A stretch of DNA of 10,740 nt from a virus (lineage: Duplodnaviria; Heunggongvirae; Uroviricota; Caudoviricetes). The stretch lies in IMG/VR virus record IMGVR_UViG_2579779116_000010, positions 1 through 10,740 of that record; one strand, given 5' to 3'. Numbering within the stretch: the stretch's first letter is position 1; each line of letters begins with the position of its first letter. The notes beneath the pieces were generated by a model. It was not told where the DNA came from. It was given only the letters and a program-made list of their open reading frames with translations, and did no database searches. A program made the position numbers and the translations under genes. Positions 2,671 to 9,533 of this stretch are shown here, piece after piece.

Positions 2671-2699
2671 AATATATGCCTTTCAATCTACTTTTGCAA
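2671..2699 (-). promoter_or_regulatory. pR'-like late promoter (TTGCAA-N17-TATATT) overlapping the 3' end of the Q-like gene
   Basis: Minus strand -35 TTGCAA (plus 2694-2699), 17-nt spacer, -10 TATATT (plus 2671-2676). Predicted start near 2664, about 70 nt upstream of the tR'-like terminator. This matches the lambda Q/pR'/tR' arrangement. Confidence 0.45.
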
Positions 2700-3372
2700 C
2701 ACTTTGCTTTGAAAATGCCGCCTTTTGTTTTGAACGCGTTCTCATTACAAACAATAAAGCCCCACTATCCAGTCGGTAAAAAATGTGTTTCATTGCAACC
2801 CAGTGACGAGTAAATGTTTTGGACCAGTTTTTAGTTGTCACTCCCGCCAGTAATGCCAGCTCCTGGTATTCATAACCTTCCCCACCAAAAAGTTCTGCTT
2901 TTACTGCCTGCGCCGCCAGCCAGATTAATTTTTTCAGGCGTTCCTGCGTTTTCCCTGCAATTTTTCTGGTACCGGATTGAGTATTAAATTCATTCCACGC
3001 CCACTGTGTTATCGCGATCTGATATTCCCAACAAATACTCCCGCTGTAACACCACAACAACCAGGCTTTATGATGTTCTTCAAGAGACAGAACAGCCCGC
3101 CGCCACGATGATGTCGAAAACTCAACCGGACTGACCAGAGGAATTGACGTCCCCTTCGCCAGCGATTGTTTCCCCGGGATTGGTGGATTATCCCGCGTAA
3201 TCATTTTTCCGGTCACTTCATCTCGGTACCGGATTTTTTTACGCCTGTAACGCCCTGTATCAAACATGGCATTCTCCTGCCAGGCTTCAAGCTGACCTTT
3301 TGTTGCCCCACTCAAATCAGCGGTGGCGATAATGAGCTGCTCACGCACAAACTGTAAATACTGGTTATTCAT
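2683..3372 (-). CDS. Putative late-gene antiterminator (Q-like), 229 aa
   Basis: ORF-track ORF 2683..3378, trimmed to the ATG at 3370-3372, which overlaps the rusA stop as ATGA. Assigned by position only: directly downstream of rusA and directly upstream of the pR'/tR' module and phage tRNAs. I could not confirm family membership from the sequence. Confidence 0.5.
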   Translation of the reverse strand: MNNQYLQFVREQLIIATADLSGATKGQLEAWQENAMFDTGRYRRKKIRYRDEVTGKMITRDNPPIPGKQSLAKGTSIPLVSPVEFSTSSWRRAVLSLEEHHKAWLLWCYSGSICWEYQIAITQWAWNEFNTQSGTRKIAGKTQERLKKLIWLAAQAVKAELFGGEGYEYQELALLAGVTTKNWSKTFTRHWVAMKHIFYRLDSGALLFVMRTRSKQKAAFSKQSVAKVD

Positions 3373-3734
3373 GCGCACTCCAGTTCTGTGATTTTTATCC
3401 CCAGCCGCCCACCAGGAACGAGCTGACCGCGCACAATATTGATTTCATCAAACTGCTCGTCGTCTATAAGTAGTCCGGCATGCGTCAGCGCATCCAGTGG
3501 TGCCTTCAGGATATTGTCCAGGTCGCGGCGGCGCTTATCCGGTGGCTCCGCAATAATCTTTATCGCCAGCCTTCCGGACAGGTTTAATTTCAACCGCTGC
3601 TGGCGAACAATAAGCGCCACATCACGGCGATAACGCTCACCGGCTTTTGATACAAAATATGTGCTGCCACGACGTCGCCAGTAAGTGTTCACCGTTGGCG
3701 GGTAAGGCAAAACAAATTCTATGCGTTCAGTCAT
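3369..3734 (-). CDS. rusA: Holliday-junction resolvase RusA (crossover junction endodeoxyribonuclease), 121 aa
   Basis: ORF-track ORF 3369..3734. MTERIEFVLPYPPTVNTYWRRRGSTYFVSKAGERYRRDVA...PDKRRRDLDNILKAPLDALTHAGLLIDDEQ...GGRLGIKITE aligns motif by motif with E. coli RusA as I recall it (LPxPPSxNxYY, PDRRRRDLDN, DALT, DD, GGRL, ITE), including the catalytic Asp cluster. Confidence 0.85.
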   Translation of the reverse strand: MTERIEFVLPYPPTVNTYWRRRGSTYFVSKAGERYRRDVALIVRQQRLKLNLSGRLAIKIIAEPPDKRRRDLDNILKAPLDALTHAGLLIDDEQFDEINIVRGQLVPGGRLGIKITELECA

Positions 3735-4793
3735 TCATGCTTTCCACTTCAGGACACCCGAATTTCTCGCGTGCATTAAAAAACGAATCAGCAACAACAG
3801 CTGGCTGCCGTGTTTTTCTTCAAAATCTTTTACCCCGGCGTGCAGTTCGTTATGACATTTACGGCACAGCGGAATAACAAACAAATCATCAGCCTTTGTT
3901 CCCATCCCTCCCAGTCCATGACCAATGATGTGATGCGGATCATCTGCCTGATTACCGCACGTCATGCATTTCTGCGTTTTTACCCAGCGCGTGTATACAG
4001 GCATCTCTTCCCGTTGTGGTTTCTGGCGCTGGAGATACTGAGTCGGTGACTCCGGATCAACAGCAATGCTGACCACCGTCTTTTCCTGTGGCGGGTTCTG
4101 TTGCTGGTGGGCGTGAGGCAGCGGCGCAAGATTTTTTGTGCGCTGTTTCAGTATGCTGGTGGCGGTCTGCTCTCCCGGTACGATGTCGCTTTCACGGTAC
4201 ATTGAGCGGATTTTTTCCGCACGCAACCCCAGCGAACGACGTAATACCACTTCCGGTAGCGCGTCCGCCACCTGATTGCGGACCGCCCACCAGGATAATT
4301 CAGCCAGAGATAATTCACGCTCCTGCGTACCGCTTATTGCGTGACCGATGACGTCAATCATCCATGCTGACAGGTTTTGATGAGCAAGTTGCTCGAGTGA
4401 TTCGGATGTCTGGTCACGCAGCTGGTTGTCGCAGTGCCAGCACAACACCATTGCGCCGGTACCATAACGGTGAATAACGGTTTCGCTGTGATGATAATCG
4501 CCGTGTGGCCACTGGCAGGATTTAACATGACGCAGGAGCCAGTCAGACAGTGCACCAGCGCCGCCGGCAGCACGAATCACCCGCTCATCGCTGAAAAATG
4601 GCAGCAGAGATTTGTCTTCTGCCAGCGGCTGGCGAACGGCAGGAACGACCCCGGACGGCAGACCGCGCATGCTTTTTGGCTCCGGTTCAACCAGCACTCT
4701 GCCGTTATGGAATACCTGCATGGATTCACGACCTGGCTTAAGGACCACCAGCCCGAGTTCCGGTACCGGAACAGGTCGAAGTAATACGCGCAC
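3735..4793 (-). CDS. ydfU: DUF968-type protein with C-terminal HNH-like zinc-finger motif (YdfU-like), 352 aa, GTG start
   Basis: ORF-track ORF 3735..4793. GTG start with GGAG 5 nt upstream. C-terminus CMTCGNQADDPHHIIGHGLGG...IPLCRKCHNELH has a CxxC...HH...CxxCH pattern. The size and its position between a small ORF and the nin/Q region match my recollection of Qin ydfU; the gene symbol is by synteny only. Confidence 0.6.
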   Translation of the reverse strand: MRVLLRPVPVPELGLVVLKPGRESMQVFHNGRVLVEPEPKSMRGLPSGVVPAVRQPLAEDKSLLPFFSDERVIRAAGGAGALSDWLLRHVKSCQWPHGDYHHSETVIHRYGTGAMVLCWHCDNQLRDQTSESLEQLAHQNLSAWMIDVIGHAISGTQERELSLAELSWWAVRNQVADALPEVVLRRSLGLRAEKIRSMYRESDIVPGEQTATSILKQRTKNLAPLPHAHQQQNPPQEKTVVSIAVDPESPTQYLQRQKPQREEMPVYTRWVKTQKCMTCGNQADDPHHIIGHGLGGMGTKADDLFVIPLCRKCHNELHAGVKDFEEKHGSQLLLLIRFLMHARNSGVLKWKA

Positions 4794-4794
4794 G

Positions 4795-5067
4795 TTATCT
4801 CCAGATTCGTTGCTGGAATGTGCGGGACGGGCGTGGTGGGCGTTCGGAATAAGGGAGCCTGACGTAGATTATCCAGTGACGATAATCGAGGCTGAGAGCT
4901 TTCCTAAACTCATACCCACGTCTGCGGTAGTTATGAATCAGCCATTCGGCCTGTTCTTCAGTGCAGGGGTCATGCTGGTACCAGTCACATTTGAATGTGT
5001 GAGGGCGCCGCCCGTGCCCGCTGGCAAGGTCGGTATCAGAATTGTGATGTTTGGTATTGTGCGCCAT
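4795..5067 (-). CDS. Hypothetical protein, about 90 aa, in the position that rem occupies in Qin
   Basis: ORF-track ORF 4795..5148 uses a TTG start that lies inside the terminator at 5138-5165, so I shortened it to the first ATG (5065-5067, MAHNTKHH...). SD is weak (AGAGA). The stop abuts the GTG start of the DUF968 gene. No recognisable motif. Confidence 0.35.
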   Translation of the reverse strand: MAHNTKHHNSDTDLASGHGRRPHTFKCDWYQHDPCTEEQAEWLIHNYRRRGYEFRKALSLDYRHWIIYVRLPYSERPPRPSRTFQQRIWR

Positions 5068-5137: not shown

Positions 5138-5165
5138 GAAAAAAACAAAACCCGCCGAAGCGGGT
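5138..5165 (-). terminator. Intrinsic terminator downstream of the lipoprotein gene
   Basis: Minus strand reads ACCCGC-TTCG-GCGGG-TTTTGTTTTTTT (plus 5139-5165): 5-bp GC stem, UUCG tetraloop, T-rich tail. Confidence 0.6.
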
Positions 5166-5294
5166 ATGCTAAAACAAACTGAAGGTAATATGCCGGACTT
5201 GTAAAGGAACGATAGAATAATTATCGGATTAAATCCTGACTCAATCCATAGGGTTTACAGCGTTTTCACTAATAATTTACCGTCCCGCTATACA

Positions 5295-5687
5295 TTACTG
5301 CCCTGTTTTAACGAAGTTTTTAAAGGAAACAACTGCCTGATAGGGGTTTGGTTGACAGCCAAACATATTGTCGCAAAAAGGCTTGATGAAAATTCTTGAG
5401 GATCCATCTTCATTTGGCATTTTACTCACTTGATAAGCGAGGAATGGACTATTTGGAGAGGGATTATAAGTGGAAATTAGCGTGTCTGTCGCCGTTTGAA
5501 TTTTCCATGAGGAATTATTAGCCAACCAGAATTGCGCTCGTTTCCAATAAAAGTCACATTGCTTTTCATCATTACATGTTAGTGGCTTCATTGCTTCTGC
5601 TTTCAACGCTGGATCGACCTTTGCTGCACACCCTCCCAACATTACTGTTGCAATCATTACACCTGCGACTAAAACAAGTTTCTTCAT
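5295..5687 (-). CDS. Lipoprotein, 130 aa (signal peptide with lipobox LGG-C, mature part with four further Cys); moron-like
   Basis: ORF-track ORF 5295..5687. MKKLVLVAGVMIATVMLGGC... is a classic type II signal peptide with lipobox. Visibly more AT-rich than the flanking genes. Bracketed by terminator-like hairpins at 5745-5765 and 5138-5165. No family recognised. Confidence 0.7.
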   Translation of the reverse strand: MKKLVLVAGVMIATVMLGGCAAKVDPALKAEAMKPLTCNDEKQCDFYWKRAQFWLANNSSWKIQTATDTLISTYNPSPNSPFLAYQVSKMPNEDGSSRIFIKPFCDNMFGCQPNPYQAVVSFKNFVKTGQ

Positions 5688-5744
5688 CTCCCTGCCCCAT
5701 CAATAAAAGTTCGGTTCTCTAATAACTAGAGTTAATCAACGGAA

Positions 5745-5765
5745 AAAACGCCGAAGCGGGTTAAG
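5745..5765 (-). terminator. Weak intrinsic terminator-like element downstream of hokD
   Basis: Minus strand CCCGC-TTCG-GCG-TTTTTT (plus 5743-5761): short 3-bp stem with UUCG loop and T6. Shares the exact 13-mer CGCCGAAGCGGGT with the terminator at 5153-5165. Confidence 0.3.
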
Positions 5766-5830: not shown

Positions 5831-5986
5831 TTACTCCTCAGGTTCGTAAGCTGTGAAGACAGCGACCTCCGTCTGGCCGGTTCGGATTCGTACCTCGCAG
5901 AGGTCTTTCCTCGTTACCAGTGCCGTCACTATGACGGTTAAACAGATGACGATCAGGGCGATTAACATCGCCTTTTGCTGCTTCAT
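5831..5986 (-). CDS. hokD: Hok-family type I toxin HokD (RelF), 51 aa
   Basis: Not in the ORF track (under 60 aa). Reverse complement of 5831-5986 translates to MKQQKAMLIALIVICLTVIVTALVTRKDLCEVRIRTGQTEVAVFTAYEPEE, which matches my recollection of K-12 HokD. It lies directly downstream of relE, as in the relBEF operon. Confidence 0.85.
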   Translation of the reverse strand: MKQQKAMLIALIVICLTVIVTALVTRKDLCEVRIRTGQTEVAVFTAYEPEE

Positions 5987-6057: not shown

Positions 6058-6345
6058 TCAGAGAATGCGTTTGACCGCCTCGCTATATACTTCCGAGCGT
6101 TCTCTTTTCCCAACAGAAATCACGAAAACGACAACTTTCTCGTCTATAACCTGGTATACAAGGCGATAGCCTGAAGACCGGAGCTTAATCTTGTAACAAT
6201 CAGGCATACCACGGAGCTTGTTTGCTTCAATCCGGGGTGACTCAAGTACTTCAACCAGCTTCTTTTTCAACTGTTCACGTACCGTCGAGCCCAGCTTTCG
6301 CCATTCCTTTAGTGCCCGCTCGTCAAAATCCAGAAAATACGCCAT
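6058..6345 (-). CDS. relE: RelE mRNA-interferase toxin, 95 aa
   Basis: ORF-track ORF 6058..6345. MAYFLDFDERALKEWRKLGSTVREQLKKKLVEVLESPRIEANKLRGMPDCYKIKLRSSGYRLVYQVIDEKVVVFVISVGKRERSEVYSEAVKRIL is essentially the K-12 RelE sequence as I recall it. Its start overlaps the relB stop (TGATG). Confidence 0.92.
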   Translation of the reverse strand: MAYFLDFDERALKEWRKLGSTVREQLKKKLVEVLESPRIEANKLRGMPDCYKIKLRSSGYRLVYQVIDEKVVVFVISVGKRERSEVYSEAVKRIL

Positions 6346-6584
6346 CAGAGTTCATCCAGCGTCACACGTACTGGCTTAGGATTACGAAGCCGTTCTTTCA
6401 CTATCTCCACAAGTTCAGCATCTTCATCACTCAGGAGTGTCTGTTTGAACGGCAAGCGTTCATTGTCAGCGATATACTCGAGCATGAGACGAAGCGCTTC
6501 AGAAGGAGTTACACCCATTTTTTCAAGCGCGGCGTAAGAACGCGCTTTAAGTTCATCGTCAATACGCAGGTTAATGCTACCCAT
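6345..6584 (-). CDS. relB: RelB antitoxin, 79 aa
   Basis: ORF-track ORF 6345..6584. MGSINLRIDDELKARSYAALEKMGVTPSEALRLMLEYIADNERLPFKQTLLSDEDAELVEIVKERLRNPKPVRVTLDEL matches my recollection of K-12 RelB, with a ribbon-helix-helix N-terminus. Confidence 0.92.
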   Translation of the reverse strand: MGSINLRIDDELKARSYAALEKMGVTPSEALRLMLEYIADNERLPFKQTLLSDEDAELVEIVKERLRNPKPVRVTLDEL

Positions 6585-7116: not shown

Positions 7117-7449
7117 ATGTCTGTCACAATTCAGGGAAATACCTCAACCGTTATTTCAAACAACTCCGCCCCGGAAGGAACATCAGAAATAGCCAAAATC
7201 ACAAGACAAATTCAGGTGCTGACTGAAAAGCTTGGGAAAATCTCATCGGAAGAGGGGATGACGACACAGCAGAAAAAAGAAATGGCTGCATTGGTACAGA
7301 AGCAAATTGAAAGCCTCTGGGCTCAACTGGAGCAGTTGTTAAGGCAGCAGGCAGAGAAAAAGAATGAAGACGCGACAGTTCAGCCTGATAAAAAAGAAGA
7401 GAAAAAAGACGATACAAATACCGCTGGCACCATTGATATTTACGTCTAA
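7117..7449 (+). CDS. flxA: FlxA, FliA-regulated protein of unknown function, 110 aa
   Basis: ORF-track ORF 7117..7449. Strong SD. Coiled-coil-like, Lys/Glu/Gln-rich sequence (MSVTIQGNTSTVISNNSAPEGTSEIAKITRQIQVLTEKLGK...). Position next to relB and the sigma-28 promoter match K-12 flxA as I recall it. Confidence 0.85.
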   Translation: MSVTIQGNTSTVISNNSAPEGTSEIAKITRQIQVLTEKLGKISSEEGMTTQQKKEMAALVQKQIESLWAQLEQLLRQQAEKKNEDATVQPDKKEEKKDDTNTAGTIDIYV

Positions 7450-7759: not shown

Positions 7760-9270
7760 ACTCAGCGCGTTTCTGGCATATCCCCGGTAAAACAAGTAAC
7801 AAACCACCCGAAAATGAACACCAGAAACGCGACTTAAGAATCTACCCTATGAATGGATATGCACTCAACCGAATCGATCTTGGTTTCAATCTTTTTTATC
7901 GGGATCAGGCTTCTTTTTAGGTAACTTCGGGGGCTTAACTTGCTGATGACTTTGCGTTCGGCGCGTAAGCCAGGGATGGTCAGCTTTAGGTTTAACATAG
8001 TATTTTGAGCGTAAATCAATACGGGCATTATCCACTCGTTCATGGACACTCTTTTCATCATCCGGTGGTATAGGCTCCGGGCCATCAACATACTTTTCCC
8101 AGCCCAGCGCTTTCCCGTCATACAGAACGTTAATTTCACCGTCAAAGTTCTCGCATACAGTAACAACCGAATGCCTAAGTCGATATCCCCGGCCCTCACT
8201 GCGTACCTGAAACGCACTGCTTTTGTACTGGAAAGTGAGATTTTTAGACAGAACGCGCTTCGCCTGTAGGCTGAAGATATAACCCAGTTCCTCTTCAGAA
8301 TGGTGCACATCAAGATGAGCATTATCAGTAGTACGAGGCGACGTAGCGAACCGGTTGTTATAGGCTTCAATAAAGGTCGGCAACCATGCATTTGCTGTTT
8401 CAATATCACTGATATTCTGAAGCCGCATTTCTTTGACCAGCCTGTCCTGTAGTGTCTGATTGGCGCGCTCTACCCGCCCTTTTGCCTGCGGGCTGTTGGC
8501 ATGGATTGGCTCGATGCCCAGTGTCTTTATCGCACGAGTGAACTGGGTCAGCTCACCTTCCCGCTCTGGGTTATTTACCCTGAATATACTGTGTCTATCA
8601 GAGTAGAGAGCGAGCGGTACGCCATGATCATTAAGGTAACCCCGGAGGGTTTCCATGTAAGCCCGGGTTGTTTCAGCAGGCACAAAACGCAACGCCATCA
8701 ACGCACTGGTGGCATCATCAATGAAAACGATCAGTGTACATCTGGGGCCTCGATTTTCAAACCAGTCATGAGGTGAGCCATCAATCTGGATCAGTTCACC
8801 GTAAGATGGTCGTCGCATGCGGCGTTGATATATACGGGCAATTTTACGACGGCGTTCACGCCATAACCCCTCTTCTATCATCCACTTTCTGAGAGTTTCA
8901 ACGGATAAAGATAAACCGTGTATCTCGCGCAATTTTTCGCACGCAAACGTAGGTCCAAAATCAGCGTAACGGCCTTTGAGGAGTGAAATTACTGTTGCTC
9001 TGAATTCAGTAGAAAAGGAATTATTAGGACGCTTTCCACGTCGGTGGGAAACCAGACCAGAAGGCCCTTCATTTCTATACCGTTGCACCAGACGTTTAAC
9101 CTGCCGAATAGAAATGCCAATGCGTGCCGCAGCTTGTTCCTGAATAATCTGAAGTCGGTGGAGTTCCTTATGACTCATCGTAACAGTCTCTTTGATCATG
9201 AAAAATCCCCCAGAGAATTGTCTGGGGACATTTTAGAATGGTTCAAAGGGGACATTACAGCTTGGTGTTA
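7760..9270 (-). mobile_element. Insertion sequence carrying the DDE transposase; boundaries approximate
   Basis: Transposase gene plus flanking repeat-rich DNA: an 11-bp perfect inverted repeat CGCGTTTCTGG / CCAGAAACGCG at 7766-7776 and 7821-7831, and two GGGGACATT direct repeats at 9224-9232 and 9249-9257. I could not identify matching terminal inverted repeats or a target-site duplication. Confidence 0.3.
7886..9199 (-). CDS. DDE transposase (rve / integrase-core type, N-terminal HTH), 437 aa; IS481- or ISNCY-like, family not resolved
   Basis: ORF-track ORF 7886..9199. N-terminal HTH-like region (SHKELHRLQIIQEQAAARIGISIRQVKRLVQRY). Catalytic triad candidates are D in LIQIDGSPHDW, D in ALYSDRHSIF and E in GRVERANQTLQDR with basic residues after the E. 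Single long ORF with SD GGGGGA. Confidence 0.8.
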   Translation of the reverse strand: MIKETVTMSHKELHRLQIIQEQAAARIGISIRQVKRLVQRYRNEGPSGLVSHRRGKRPNNSFSTEFRATVISLLKGRYADFGPTFACEKLREIHGLSLSVETLRKWMIEEGLWRERRRKIARIYQRRMRRPSYGELIQIDGSPHDWFENRGPRCTLIVFIDDATSALMALRFVPAETTRAYMETLRGYLNDHGVPLALYSDRHSIFRVNNPEREGELTQFTRAIKTLGIEPIHANSPQAKGRVERANQTLQDRLVKEMRLQNISDIETANAWLPTFIEAYNNRFATSPRTTDNAHLDVHHSEEELGYIFSLQAKRVLSKNLTFQYKSSAFQVRSEGRGYRLRHSVVTVCENFDGEINVLYDGKALGWEKYVDGPEPIPPDDEKSVHERVDNARIDLRSKYYVKPKADHPWLTRRTQSHQQVKPPKLPKKKPDPDKKD

Positions 9271-9533
9271 ACAATAGCCTGCTTCTCCGTGCCTTTCGGC
9301 ACGTAAGAGGCTAACCTACATGTGTCTAGCATGAAATTGGCCTCAGATTAATGTTAAGCGTCTTGCAGGACGCGTAATGTTAACTGGGGCTTTTCTCTAT
9401 CTGCCGTTGGTGTCCATGCCCGAGGCAGATAGCCTCAAGCACCCGCAGTCATTCTACTTAACTAAGATTTCCCCGCAAACCGTTTTTGTCCAGCACAGTA
9501 AATATCCAACTAAACCAATGGAGTTCGCTGTAT

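What the first reader, a model, noticed from the sequence alone, without database searches (positions are those of the whole stretch)
5138..5765. AT-rich lipoprotein moron bracketed by terminators that share an exact 13-bp direct repeat
A 130-aa lipoprotein gene (lipobox LGG-C, four additional Cys in the mature part) sits between hokD and the nin-region genes. It is visibly more AT-rich than its neighbours. It is flanked by terminator-like hairpins at 5745-5765 and 5138-5165, both containing CGCCGAAGCGGGT (5749-5761 and 5153-5165) after an A-run. That is the classic moron architecture and hints at insertion by recombination at a terminator. The downstream terminator also overlaps the start of the next ORF, so that ORF's annotated TTG start is unlikely. 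Phage lipoprotein morons often act in superinfection exclusion or host-surface modification (Cor, Llp, Bor), but this sequence resembles none of those that I can recall.
Basis: partly seen in the sequence, partly recalled or inferred. Interest (0 to 1): 0.6.

Follow-up and report, generated by a model that had tools for sequence, protein, structure and literature searches.

The report
Phage lipoprotein cassette in hokD terminator
A 596-base extra piece of DNA carrying one gene for an uncharacterised phage lipoprotein was inserted into the transcription terminator behind the hokD toxin gene of a Qin-like prophage; this is an ordinary phage add-on gene (a 'moron'), but its protein family is widespread, unstudied and may block infection by other phages.

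Summary
The observation largely holds. There is a 130-aa lipoprotein ORF at 5295-5687 (-). Its cassette has 39% GC, against 53-55% in the flanks. The 13-mer is exact at 5153 and 5749 (0 of 200 shuffles). Only the downstream copy is a real terminator; the hokD-proximal copy has lost its 3' stem arm and no longer folds.

Related E. coli prophages show an empty site with one intact hairpin. The insert is therefore 596 bp, with breakpoints inside the 13-mer. The empty junction is in about 2,100 of 5,426 genomes and the cassette in 255. An unrelated HTH + ImmA/IrrE cassette sits in the same slot with the same hairpin duplicated. The hairpin itself is a generic terminator sequence found in many unrelated phages. 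Short-homology recombination at terminators is the best explanation for the insertion.

The protein belongs to a phage-borne family with no Pfam entry (PHROG 16082/4186). A profile search found 1,141 cluster representatives. In other phages, homologs lie in several junctions of lambda-like tail-tip modules or directly behind CI-type repressor genes. The predicted fold is a helix-grip, resembling Flpp3 and the BamC N-domain. It is not Cor, Llp, Rtp45 or Bor.

The most likely function is a prophage-expressed block to phage entry, which is inferred and not shown. This is a new member of a known kind, of moderate interest.

The parts
5831..5986 (-). hokD (51 aa Hok/Gef toxin). Here it is the last gene of a relB-relE-hokD array. 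Its terminator is the insertion target.
   Evidence: Pfam HOK_GEF 1.2e-23. Annotated hokD in L001-L007.
5743..5765 (-). Left junction: truncated hokD terminator. On the gene strand it reads TTAACCCGCTTCGGCG followed by TTTTTT. It holds the left copy of the 13-mer (5749-5761). The 3' stem arm GGGT(T) is missing.
   Evidence: Exact 13-mer. The hairpin is not formed in the minimum-energy fold, -5.3 kcal/mol, z 0.31. Not reported by the terminator scan. The intact version is seen in the empty site, in K-12 and in other alleles.
5688..5748 (-). Cassette 5' leader. The block CTTTTATTGATGGGGCAGGGAG-ATG is conserved in homologous cassettes of other genera. Where the homologs have a -10-like TAGGAT, the window has TAGAGA. 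No consensus promoter was found.
   Evidence: Alignment A4. Sequences. Promoter scans negative.
5295..5687 (-). Lipoprotein gene, 130 aa. The signal peptide is residues 1-19 and the lipobox is LGGC, with the acylated Cys20 at codon 5628-5630. Residue +2 is Ala. Cys38, 44, 105 and 111 are conserved. The mature domain is 111 aa with a helix-grip-like fold.
5166..5294 (-). Cassette 3' UTR, short form. Most E. coli copies carry 68-69 extra bases between window 5248 and 5249.
   Evidence: Alignment. 13-mer spacing of +522 against +591 in 55 IMG/VR loci. Two-piece hits.
5139..5165 (-). Right junction: intact intrinsic terminator, ACCCGC-UUCG-GCGGGU followed by UUUUGUUUUUUU. It holds the right copy of the 13-mer (5153-5165). 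It now ends the lipoprotein transcript.
   Evidence: Terminator scan hit. -13.1 kcal/mol, z -3.53. The downstream flank is identical to that of the empty site.
4795..5067 (-). Downstream small ORF (90 aa from the ATG at 5067; PHROG 1212, unknown function). It is the first gene after the slot. The TTG at 5148 is not its start.
   Evidence: PHROG 1212, 1.2e-36, aligned to residues 52-117 of the 117-aa reading. RefSeq homologs of 92 aa start at the equivalent ATG. Sequence.
3735..4793 (-). DUF968/YdfU-type HNH protein. It is the conserved right-hand flank that, together with hokD, allows homologous exchange of the slot between lambdoid prophages.
   Evidence: Pfam DUF968 1.5e-63. Present next to the slot in all loci examined.

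Best explanation
Window 5153-5761 is a 596-bp insertion into the intrinsic terminator that follows hokD in a Qin-like lambdoid prophage. It consists of 583 unique bases plus a second copy of 13 bases of the target.

**How it got there (inferred from comparison).** The insert carries one gene. It entered by recombination across a very short stretch of identity inside a GC-rich, UUCG-loop terminator hairpin. Many unrelated phages use this same hairpin sequence. Homologous lipoprotein cassettes in other genera carry such a hairpin at their own 5' end. The allele then spread among E. coli lambdoid prophages by ordinary homologous exchange through the conserved hokD and DUF968 flanks.

**Consequence for transcription (inferred from folding).** The event split the hairpin. 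The hokD-proximal copy lacks its 3' arm and cannot fold. Transcripts coming from hokD (here from relB-relE-hokD) are therefore predicted to run into the lipoprotein gene and to stop at the intact copy downstream. This would supply prophage-state expression even though no promoter of the cassette's own is evident.

**The product (shown by sequence, not by experiment).** It is a Sec/Lsp-type lipoprotein. [quoted passage not shown] It has two probable disulfides and a helix-grip fold.

**What it does (inferred from context only).** It most likely acts from the periplasmic side of the outer membrane to block entry of incoming siphophages. It could do this by disabling a receptor or by interfering with the tail-tip and DNA-ejection step. 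That would be superinfection exclusion, analogous to Cor, Llp and Rtp45 but with an unrelated, larger protein.
For: **Insertion**
- The empty site has a single intact hairpin, and the breakpoints lie in the 13-mer.
- The empty junction is in about 2,133 genomes and the cassette in 255, of which 250 are in the same hokD context, out of 5,426.
- The cassette is at least 97.8% identical everywhere, while the flanks are 90-97% identical.
- GC is 0.39 in the cassette against 0.53-0.55 in the flanks.

**Terminator as the recombination joint**
- An unrelated HTH + ImmA/IrrE cassette in the same slot is bracketed by two full copies of AACCCGCTTCGGCGGGTTTTGTT.
- At least nine different sequences follow the same hairpin in other prophages, including rem in K-12.
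- The 20-mer hairpin is generic: 91 of 122 sampled viral-contig occurrences are unrelated to hokD.
- Homologous cassettes in Pantoea-like and Enterobacter prophages carry ACCCGCTTCGGCGGGT or CCCGCTTCGGTGGG at the same distance (-78) from the start codon, in unrelated surroundings. Other copies carry different but well-folding hairpins there.

**Read-through**
- The left copy does not fold (-5.3 kcal/mol, z 0.31). The right copy folds at -13.1 kcal/mol, and the intact K-12 hairpin at -12.8 kcal/mol.
- No promoter was found in 5688-5765.

**Protein**
- Lipobox and conserved cysteines.
- 1,141 representatives at E<=1e-3. The family corresponds to PHROG 16082/4186.

**Function**
- All 15 contexts examined outside E. 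coli are phage or prophage DNA.
- Close homologs sit in the H|M, M|L, K|I and I|J junctions, and before I, in lambda-like tail-tip modules.
- A Bordetella homolog lies just before a J-like gene.
- Distant homologs lie directly behind CI-type repressor genes: an S24 repressor in Achromobacter, and an HTH_3 gene that overlaps the lipoprotein start in L208.
- Strong terminators follow the gene inside late operons.
- Known exclusion lipoproteins act from the periplasmic face of the outer membrane (PMC12685063).
Against: - No experiment or transcript data exists for this gene or family, and no paper mentions WP_000737636.
- No sequence or fold relation to Cor, Llp, Rtp45 or Bor was found. The mature protein is about twice their size.
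- In the E. coli hokD slot the gene is no longer linked to tail genes.
- Some distant family members are fused to PDZ domains or duplicated. This hints at non-phage, housekeeping roles for the fold.
- The left junction reads GCG-TTTTTT rather than GCGGG-TTTT. A simple crossover between two identical hairpins therefore does not fully explain it; either a variant donor hairpin or a later small change is needed.
- The junctions alone do not give the direction of the event, because deletion between the 13-mers would regenerate the empty site.
- The empty-site count may include a few occupied short-form sites because of the tool's piece-joining rule.
Confidence: 0.55

Rival explanations
1. The cassette is ancestral at this position, and the 'empty' alleles arose by deletion through recombination between the two 13-mer repeats.
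For: Recombination between the direct repeats would regenerate exactly the intact hairpin of the empty site (sequence logic). Precise loss is therefore possible and probably does happen.
Against: Empty alleles are about 8 times more frequent and much more diverse (90-100% identity) than the nearly invariant cassette. Other alleles (rem, an AT-rich filler and others) keep an intact hairpin with no trace of the cassette. The cassette's GC is foreign to its flanks. Its homologs live in quite different phage positions.
Confidence: 0.08
2. The 13-mer is a target-site duplication, or the hairpins are the ends of a hairpin-guided mobile element. Such an element would be an IS200/IS605-type passenger cassette moved in trans by a Y1 transposase.
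For: Similar hairpins in direct orientation at both ends resemble the ends of IS200/IS605-type elements. Two different cassettes in the slot show the arrangement.
Against: There is no transposase or integrase in the cassette. There are no terminal inverted repeats. The duplicated length differs between the two cassettes (13 against 23 nt). All E. coli copies share one junction, which implies one event followed by homologous spread. The hairpin plus U-run is a plain terminator found in many unrelated phages. Three of the eight homologous cassettes examined outside E. coli show no clear 5' hairpin: L011 and L203 do not fold, and L012 was not tested.
Confidence: 0.04
3. The lipoprotein is a lysogenic-conversion factor that is not aimed at phages. 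It might confer serum or complement resistance (like lambda Bor or plasmid TraT), or affect adhesion, envelope stress or colonisation fitness.
For: It is a prophage-borne outer-membrane lipoprotein. The nearest fold match, Flpp3, is described as a Francisella virulence determinant. The carriers include ST131, ETEC, APEC and STEC strains.
Against: The repeated placement inside tail-tip modules and behind repressor genes, in phages of soil, plant and gut bacteria (Pantoea, Phytobacter, Achromobacter, Bordetella, metagenomes), points to phage-phage competition rather than an animal-host trait. There is no similarity to Bor.
Confidence: 0.25
4. The gene is a silent passenger in this cryptic prophage, not expressed or not functional.
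For: No recognisable promoter of its own was found. The prophage is decayed: it carries an IS, a cut hok/sok locus and a relBE insertion.
Against: The ORF is intact and 95-100% identical in 255 genomes and 55 viral contigs. The family shows strong purifying conservation, with 51 invariant positions among 12 homologs of 68-83% identity. The broken upstream terminator predicts read-through expression.
Confidence: 0.06

Closest known systems
Morons of lambdoid phages (HK97/HK022 definition; for example lambda bor and lom, and rem in the same slot of K-12 Qin)
   Same: It is extra DNA between two genes that are adjacent in related phages. Its base composition is foreign, it ends in a strong intrinsic terminator, it lies at a module boundary, and it is transcribed in the same direction as its neighbours.
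   Different: No promoter of its own is recognisable. It sits inside, not beside, the preceding terminator and disables it, so it probably borrows hokD transcription. It is flanked by a 13-bp duplication of the target.
Superinfection-exclusion lipoproteins Cor (phi80, N15, HK022, T1), Llp (T5) and Rtp45 (Rtp)
   Same: These are phage-encoded, lipobox-bearing proteins predicted to sit in the inner leaflet of the outer membrane, with disulfides. Their genes are often placed next to tail-tip or receptor-binding genes. [quoted passage not shown]
   Different: There is no sequence or fold similarity. The Cor PHROG matches only the signal peptide (E 0.007, residues 1-44). There is no PDB or BFVD Foldseek match at E<1e-3. 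The mature protein is 111 aa with a helix-grip fold, against about 55-60 aa for the known ones. No target is known.
Lambda rexAB-type genes co-transcribed with the CI repressor
   Same: Distant homologs lie immediately downstream of, or overlapping, CI-type repressor genes in the same orientation. That is the classical place for prophage-expressed exclusion functions.
   Different: RexAB are cytoplasmic-membrane abortive-infection proteins and are unrelated. In the window the gene is in the nin region, not the immunity region.
Flpp3 (DUF3568, Francisella) and the N-terminal domain of BamC; KA1 and helix-grip folds
   Different: Sequence identity is only 13%. Neither the protein nor ten family members hit any Pfam family, so DUF3568 is not matched. 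The Foldseek E-value is only 0.012. Neither match suggests a mechanism.
'Linker' or boundary-sequence model of lambdoid mosaicism (short conserved sequences at gene boundaries as recombination sites)
   Same: One short sequence, the hokD terminator hairpin, is the common left boundary of at least nine alternative downstream modules. It is duplicated around two independent inserts.
   Different: Here the shared sequence is a generic terminator hairpin that recurs by convergence in unrelated phages. It is not a dedicated linker.

Membership tests
Moron (independent accessory unit in a phage genome) | Present between two genes that are adjacent in related phages | tested here: met
   The empty site in L002 has hokD, one terminator and the small ORF contiguous. 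The empty junction is in about 2,133 genomes and the cassette in 255, of 5,426.
Moron (independent accessory unit in a phage genome) | Own promoter upstream of the gene | tested here: inconclusive
   No sigma-70 consensus match was found on the gene strand in 5688-5765, nor upstream of homologs. A -10-like TAGGAT is conserved in homologs and reads TAGAGA in the window. The scan is a simple consensus test only.
Moron (independent accessory unit in a phage genome) | Own intrinsic terminator downstream | tested here: met
   Hairpin 5150-5165 plus U-run; scan hit; -13.1 kcal/mol, z -3.5. Homologs in tail operons also end in strong terminators.
Moron (independent accessory unit in a phage genome) | Base composition different from the surrounding phage genes | tested here: met
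   GC 0.391 against 0.535-0.552 in the flanks. This is the lowest 1.7% of 583-nt windows.
Moron (independent accessory unit in a phage genome) | Expressed from the repressed prophage | not testable with these tools
   Needs transcript data. It is inferred only from the broken upstream terminator and from homologs that lie behind repressor genes.
Bacterial lipoprotein (Lgt/LspA/Lnt pathway) | N-terminal signal peptide ending in a lipobox with an invariant Cys | tested here: met
   The sequence is MKK, a hydrophobic core, then L-G-G-C20. Cys20 is invariant in 44 family members. Homologs have LSGC, LVGC or LTAC. No dedicated predictor (LipoP or SignalP) was available.
Bacterial lipoprotein (Lgt/LspA/Lnt pathway) | Lipid modification and outer-membrane sorting | not testable with these tools
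   Ala at +2 (not Asp) predicts Lol-dependent transfer to the outer membrane, according to the established +2 rule. This is an inference.
Intrinsic (rho-independent) terminator | Stable GC-rich hairpin immediately followed by a U-run (tested on both copies) | tested here: inconclusive
   The downstream copy meets the feature. The upstream copy at 5743-5765 does not: its 3' arm is truncated, no hairpin forms in the minimum-energy fold, and z is 0.31.
Cor superinfection-exclusion lipoproteins (PHROG 1119) | Sequence similarity over the mature domain | tested here: not met
   E 0.0071, and the match covers only residues 1-44 (the signal peptide) against profile positions 1-39 of 78.
Llp (T5) and Rtp45 exclusion lipoproteins | Sequence or fold similarity; mature protein of about 6 kDa | tested here: not met
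Bor/Iss lipoproteins (Pfam Lambda_Bor) | Match to the family profile | tested here: not met
   No Pfam, NCBIfam or PHROG match.
DUF3568 / Flpp3 | Match to the Pfam profile; common fold | tested here: not met
Insertion sequence, MITE or transposon | Terminal inverted repeats and/or a transposase, with a target-site duplication of fixed length | tested here: not met
   No inverted repeats at the ends. The lipoprotein gene is the only ORF of 60 aa or more in the cassette. The second cassette in the slot duplicates 23 nt, not 13.
Known anti-phage defence systems (PADLOC) | Match to a defence-protein profile | tested here: not met
   No PADLOC hit at E<=0.1.

The most novel reading that the evidence does not exclude
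The family (PHROG 16082/4186, with more than 1,000 sequence clusters) could be a new, large class of phage exclusion lipoproteins. They would act on the entry step carried out by lambda-like tail tips (H, M, L, K, I, J) rather than masking one particular receptor. That would explain why the gene has been captured in several separate junctions of that module and behind repressor genes. In addition, generic UUCG terminator hairpins may serve as the portable crossover points that move such cassettes between phages, switching off the upstream terminator in the process so that the cassette is expressed by read-through.
Probability: 0.2. Interest if true: 0.65.

Novelty: new member of a known kind. 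Interest (0 to 1): 0.4.

Why it matters
If the protein blocks phage entry, it would add a widespread and structurally distinct family to the few exclusion lipoproteins that are understood (Cor, Llp, Rtp45). It would also offer a handle on an outer-membrane or periplasmic step of siphophage infection. About 5% of complete E. coli genomes carry the gene, including ST131, ETEC, APEC and STEC strains, which matters for the host range of therapeutic phages.

The locus is also a clean natural example of how accessory genes move between phages. It offers an empty site, an occupied site, a second unrelated insert with the same duplicated hairpin, and many alternative alleles, all joined at one generic terminator. 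That makes the 'recombination at terminators' idea directly testable.

Tried and rejected
- **Family profiles.** Pfam, NCBIfam and PADLOC gave nothing for the lipoprotein or for ten distant relatives.
- **Structure comparisons.** PDB sequence searches with the single protein and with a 44-member profile gave only noise. Foldseek against PDB and BFVD gave no match at E<1e-3. The afdb50 library was unavailable.
- **Genome scan.** The genome-contig scan with back-translated motifs returned no confirmed locus.
- **Naming.** A second word-index protein search with the 44-member profile added few proteins and no informative names.
- **Literature.** Searches found nothing on this protein or on the slot.
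- **Promoters.** Scans found no consensus promoter upstream of the gene, in the window or in three homologous cassettes.
- **Transposition model.** I considered it and rejected it. There are no inverted repeats and no transposase, the duplication length is variable, and all copies share a single junction.
- **Shared ancestry of the hairpins.** I considered treating the identity between the hokD terminator and the 5' hairpin of the Pantoea-like cassette as proof of common ancestry. I rejected this as proof, because the 20-mer occurs in at least 91 unrelated viral contexts.
- **Not attempted.** I did not try to predict the receptor from the J proteins linked to homologs.
Full report
**Context.** The window is part of a Qin-like lambdoid prophage. 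All the following genes are on the minus strand.

| Coordinates | Feature |
|---|---|
| 6345-6584 | relB |
| 6058-6345 | relE |
| 5831-5986 | hokD |
| 5295-5687 | the 130-aa ORF |
| 4795-5067 | small ORF |
| 3735-4793 | DUF968/YdfU-type HNH gene |
| 3369-3734 | rusA |
| 2683-3378 | Q |
| 2320-2473 | two tRNA genes |
| 335-1064 | holin genes |

flxA (7117-7449) lies on the plus strand beyond relB. An ISEsa1-like IS (transposase 7886-9199, minus strand) lies beyond flxA. No complete E. coli genome holds the whole arrangement. The nearest is NCTC9699, at 97% identity over 67% of the window.

**Checking the observation.** Most of it holds.
- The ORF, its lipobox (LGG-C20) and the four further cysteines are as described.
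- The 13-mer occurs exactly twice, at 5153 and 5749. Two matches were never seen in 200 shuffles.
- The cassette 5166-5748 has 39.1% GC. The two flanks have 53-55% and the window as a whole 47.2%. Only 1.7% of equal-sized windows are as AT-rich.
- The two 'terminators' are not equivalent.
  - The downstream one (stem 5150-5165, UUCG loop, U-run) passes the terminator scan and folds at -13.1 kcal/mol, z -3.5.
  - The upstream one keeps the 5' arm, the loop and three bases of the 3' arm before a T6 run. Its minimum-energy fold does not contain the hairpin (-5.3 kcal/mol, z +0.3).
- The TTG at 5148 lies in the terminator tail. RefSeq annotations of homologs start at the ATG that corresponds to 5067.

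**Presence and absence.**
- In strain FDAARGOS_1265 (L002), hokD is followed by a single intact hairpin and then directly by the small ORF...AAAACC|CGCCGAACCGGGTTAAG. The window differs by exactly the 596 bases between the two 13-mers.
- A 221-bp probe across this empty junction is covered to at least 80% in 2,133 of 5,426 complete E. coli genomes. The tool's piece-joining rule could let a few short-form occupied sites into that count.
- The cassette is in 255 genomes, always chromosomal. In 250 of them it is in the same hokD context.
- All 55 E. coli-type viral contigs carry the same two junctions, apart from one locus cut by an insertion and two whose right-hand 13-mer is degenerate or not found. 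They come in a short form, as here, or a long form with 68-69 extra bases in the 3' UTR.
- The cassette is at least 97.8% identical everywhere, whereas the flanks diverge to 90-97%.
- Together these results indicate one insertion event, followed by spread through homologous exchange via the conserved flanks.

**The slot.** The hokD terminator is a general mosaic boundary.
- K-12 has rem after an intact hairpin.
- Other strains have an AT-rich filler (L004, L081).
- At least nine different continuations follow the hairpin in the loci sampled.
- Strain OkiPb01681 (L080; also L157) has an unrelated 1.35-kb HTH + ImmA/IrrE cassette in the same slot. It too is bracketed by two copies of the hairpin, in this case 23 nt and both intact.
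- Duplication of the terminator around an insert has therefore happened at least twice.

**What the hairpin is.**
- The 20-mer AACCCGCTTCGGCGGGTTTT is a generic terminator sequence.
- Homologs of the lipoprotein cassette in other genera carry a hairpin plus T-run at their own 5' end, about 78 nt before the start codon.
  - Some have nearly the same sequence: ACCCGCTTCGGCGGGT in L072, and CCCGCTTCGGTGGG in L008 directly after the tape-measure stop codon.
  - Others have a different but well-folding sequence (L204, L071, L205).
- The simplest reading is recombination over 10-16 bases of identity between such hairpins. The route could be a double event, or Campbell-type insertion of a circularised cassette. 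I cannot distinguish these routes.
- The left junction (GCG-TTTTTT instead of GCGGG-TTTT) needs either a variant donor hairpin or a later small change.
- A transposition model is not supported. There are no terminal inverted repeats, no recombinase, and the duplication length is variable.

**Predicted consequence.**
- The insert disables the terminator of hokD and places the intact copy behind the lipoprotein gene.
- No sigma-70 consensus promoter is found between 5688 and 5765. The -10-like TAGGAT that is conserved in homologs reads TAGAGA here.
- I infer that the gene is expressed at least partly by read-through from hokD. In this window that means from the relB-relE-hokD array. No transcript data supports or contradicts this.

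**The protein.**
- Pfam, NCBIfam, PADLOC and PDB sequence searches gave nothing.
- PHROG 16082 matches over the full length and PHROG 4186 matches weakly. Both are of unknown function.
- A profile search of 1.84 billion cluster representatives found 1,141 proteins at E<=1e-3 and 532 at E<=1e-10. Most are 125-135 aa lipoproteins. The lipobox Cys and three of the other four cysteines are invariant, and the fourth is nearly so. A few are fused to PDZ domains or duplicated.
- The AlphaFold model is confident in the mature part (mean pLDDT 84, pTM 0.72). It shows a helix, a four-stranded sheet and a C-terminal helix.
- It is not a member of the Cor, Llp/Rtp45 or Bor families.

**Where the family lives.** Every context examined outside E. 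coli is phage DNA.

| Position | Loci |
|---|---|
| Between H and M | Enterobacter L008; L205; a Phytobacter remnant L012 |
| Between M and L | L203 |
| Between K and I | L204 |
| Between I and J | Pantoea ananatis L011, L073, L074 |
| Ahead of I, together with a second lipoprotein gene | L071, L072 |
| Just before a J-like gene | Bordetella homolog |
| Inside another tail module | metagenomic homolog |
| Directly behind CI-type repressor genes in the same orientation | Achromobacter S24 repressor; an HTH_3 gene overlapping the start in L208 |
| In early/immunity regions | further distant homologs |

- Strong terminators follow the gene inside late operons. This is the classical sign of a unit meant to be transcribed in the lysogen.
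- Linkage to tail-tip and receptor-binding genes, and co-transcription with the repressor, are the hallmarks of exclusion functions. Known exclusion lipoproteins (Llp, Rtp45) act from the periplasmic face of the outer membrane (PMC12685063).
- On that basis I rate superinfection exclusion as the most likely function, at roughly 0.4-0.5. Other lysogenic-conversion roles are the main rival.

**Verdict.** This is a real and well-delimited moron, inserted in the hokD terminator. The architecture is a known kind, and the protein family is uncharacterised but already catalogued. Interest is moderate. The value lies in a testable candidate exclusion family and in a clear natural example of cassette exchange at terminators.

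Noticed in passing
window 9273-9444 (-), next to the IS at about 7800-9262: A full-length Rfam sok (RF01794) match of 104 bits. It is the 5' regulatory part of a second hok/sok locus. It ends at the ISEsa1-like insertion sequence with no hok ORF after it, so it appears to have been cut by the IS.
   Followed up: partly
window 5248/5249; L001 3528-3595, L015 about 6440-6508: The 3' UTR of the cassette has two forms. Most E. coli copies (about 245 of 255) carry 68-69 extra bases with a 7-bp inverted repeat (GGACTAA...TTAGTCC). The window has the rarer short form.
   Followed up: partly
L080 875-2390 (E. coli OkiPb01681); also L157: An unrelated 1.35-kb cassette encoding an HTH protein and an ImmA/IrrE metallopeptidase occupies the same slot after hokD. 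It is bracketed by two intact copies of the terminator (23-nt duplication).
   Followed up: partly
L016 2622-2873 (K-12 rem); L004/L081; L089, L090, L166, L174, L178, L187: At least nine different sequences follow the same hokD terminator hairpin in lambdoid prophages. K-12's rem is simply one occupant of this hot-spot slot.
   Followed up: partly
L083-L202 (IMG/VR): The 20-mer AACCCGCTTCGGCGGGTTTT recurs as a terminator in many unrelated phage contigs from diverse metagenomes (91 of 122 sampled occurrences are not next to hokD). It is often followed by TTTATGCC or TTATTGCC and a ribosome-binding site.
   Followed up: no
L071 3374-3784; L072 3332-3679: In Pantoea-like prophages the lipoprotein gene is followed directly, with overlapping stop and start, by a second and unrelated small lipoprotein gene. 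Together they form a two-lipoprotein island in the tail module.
   Followed up: no
P0034, P0101, P0133 (PDZ fusions); P0117 (tandem duplication): Some distant members of the family are fused to a C-terminal PDZ domain or contain two copies of the domain. This suggests the fold also has non-phage periplasmic roles.
   Followed up: no
L053 2300-3000: One viral contig has two hokD copies in tandem. The first is followed by a rem-type junction and an N, and the second by the lipoprotein cassette. This may be an assembly artefact or a recombinant between two slot alleles.
   Followed up: no
L031 about 2927; L007 4604-5817; L017: Insertion sequences (IS10-like, IS1203) have landed within or next to the cassette or its left hairpin in several strains.
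   Followed up: no
window 5715-5731 (+ strand TCTCTAATAACTAGAGT): A 5-bp perfect palindrome (CTCTA-N5-TAGAG on the gene strand) lies in the cassette leader, about 30-45 nt before the start codon. It could be an operator-like site or chance. It is not conserved in homologs of other genera.
   Followed up: no
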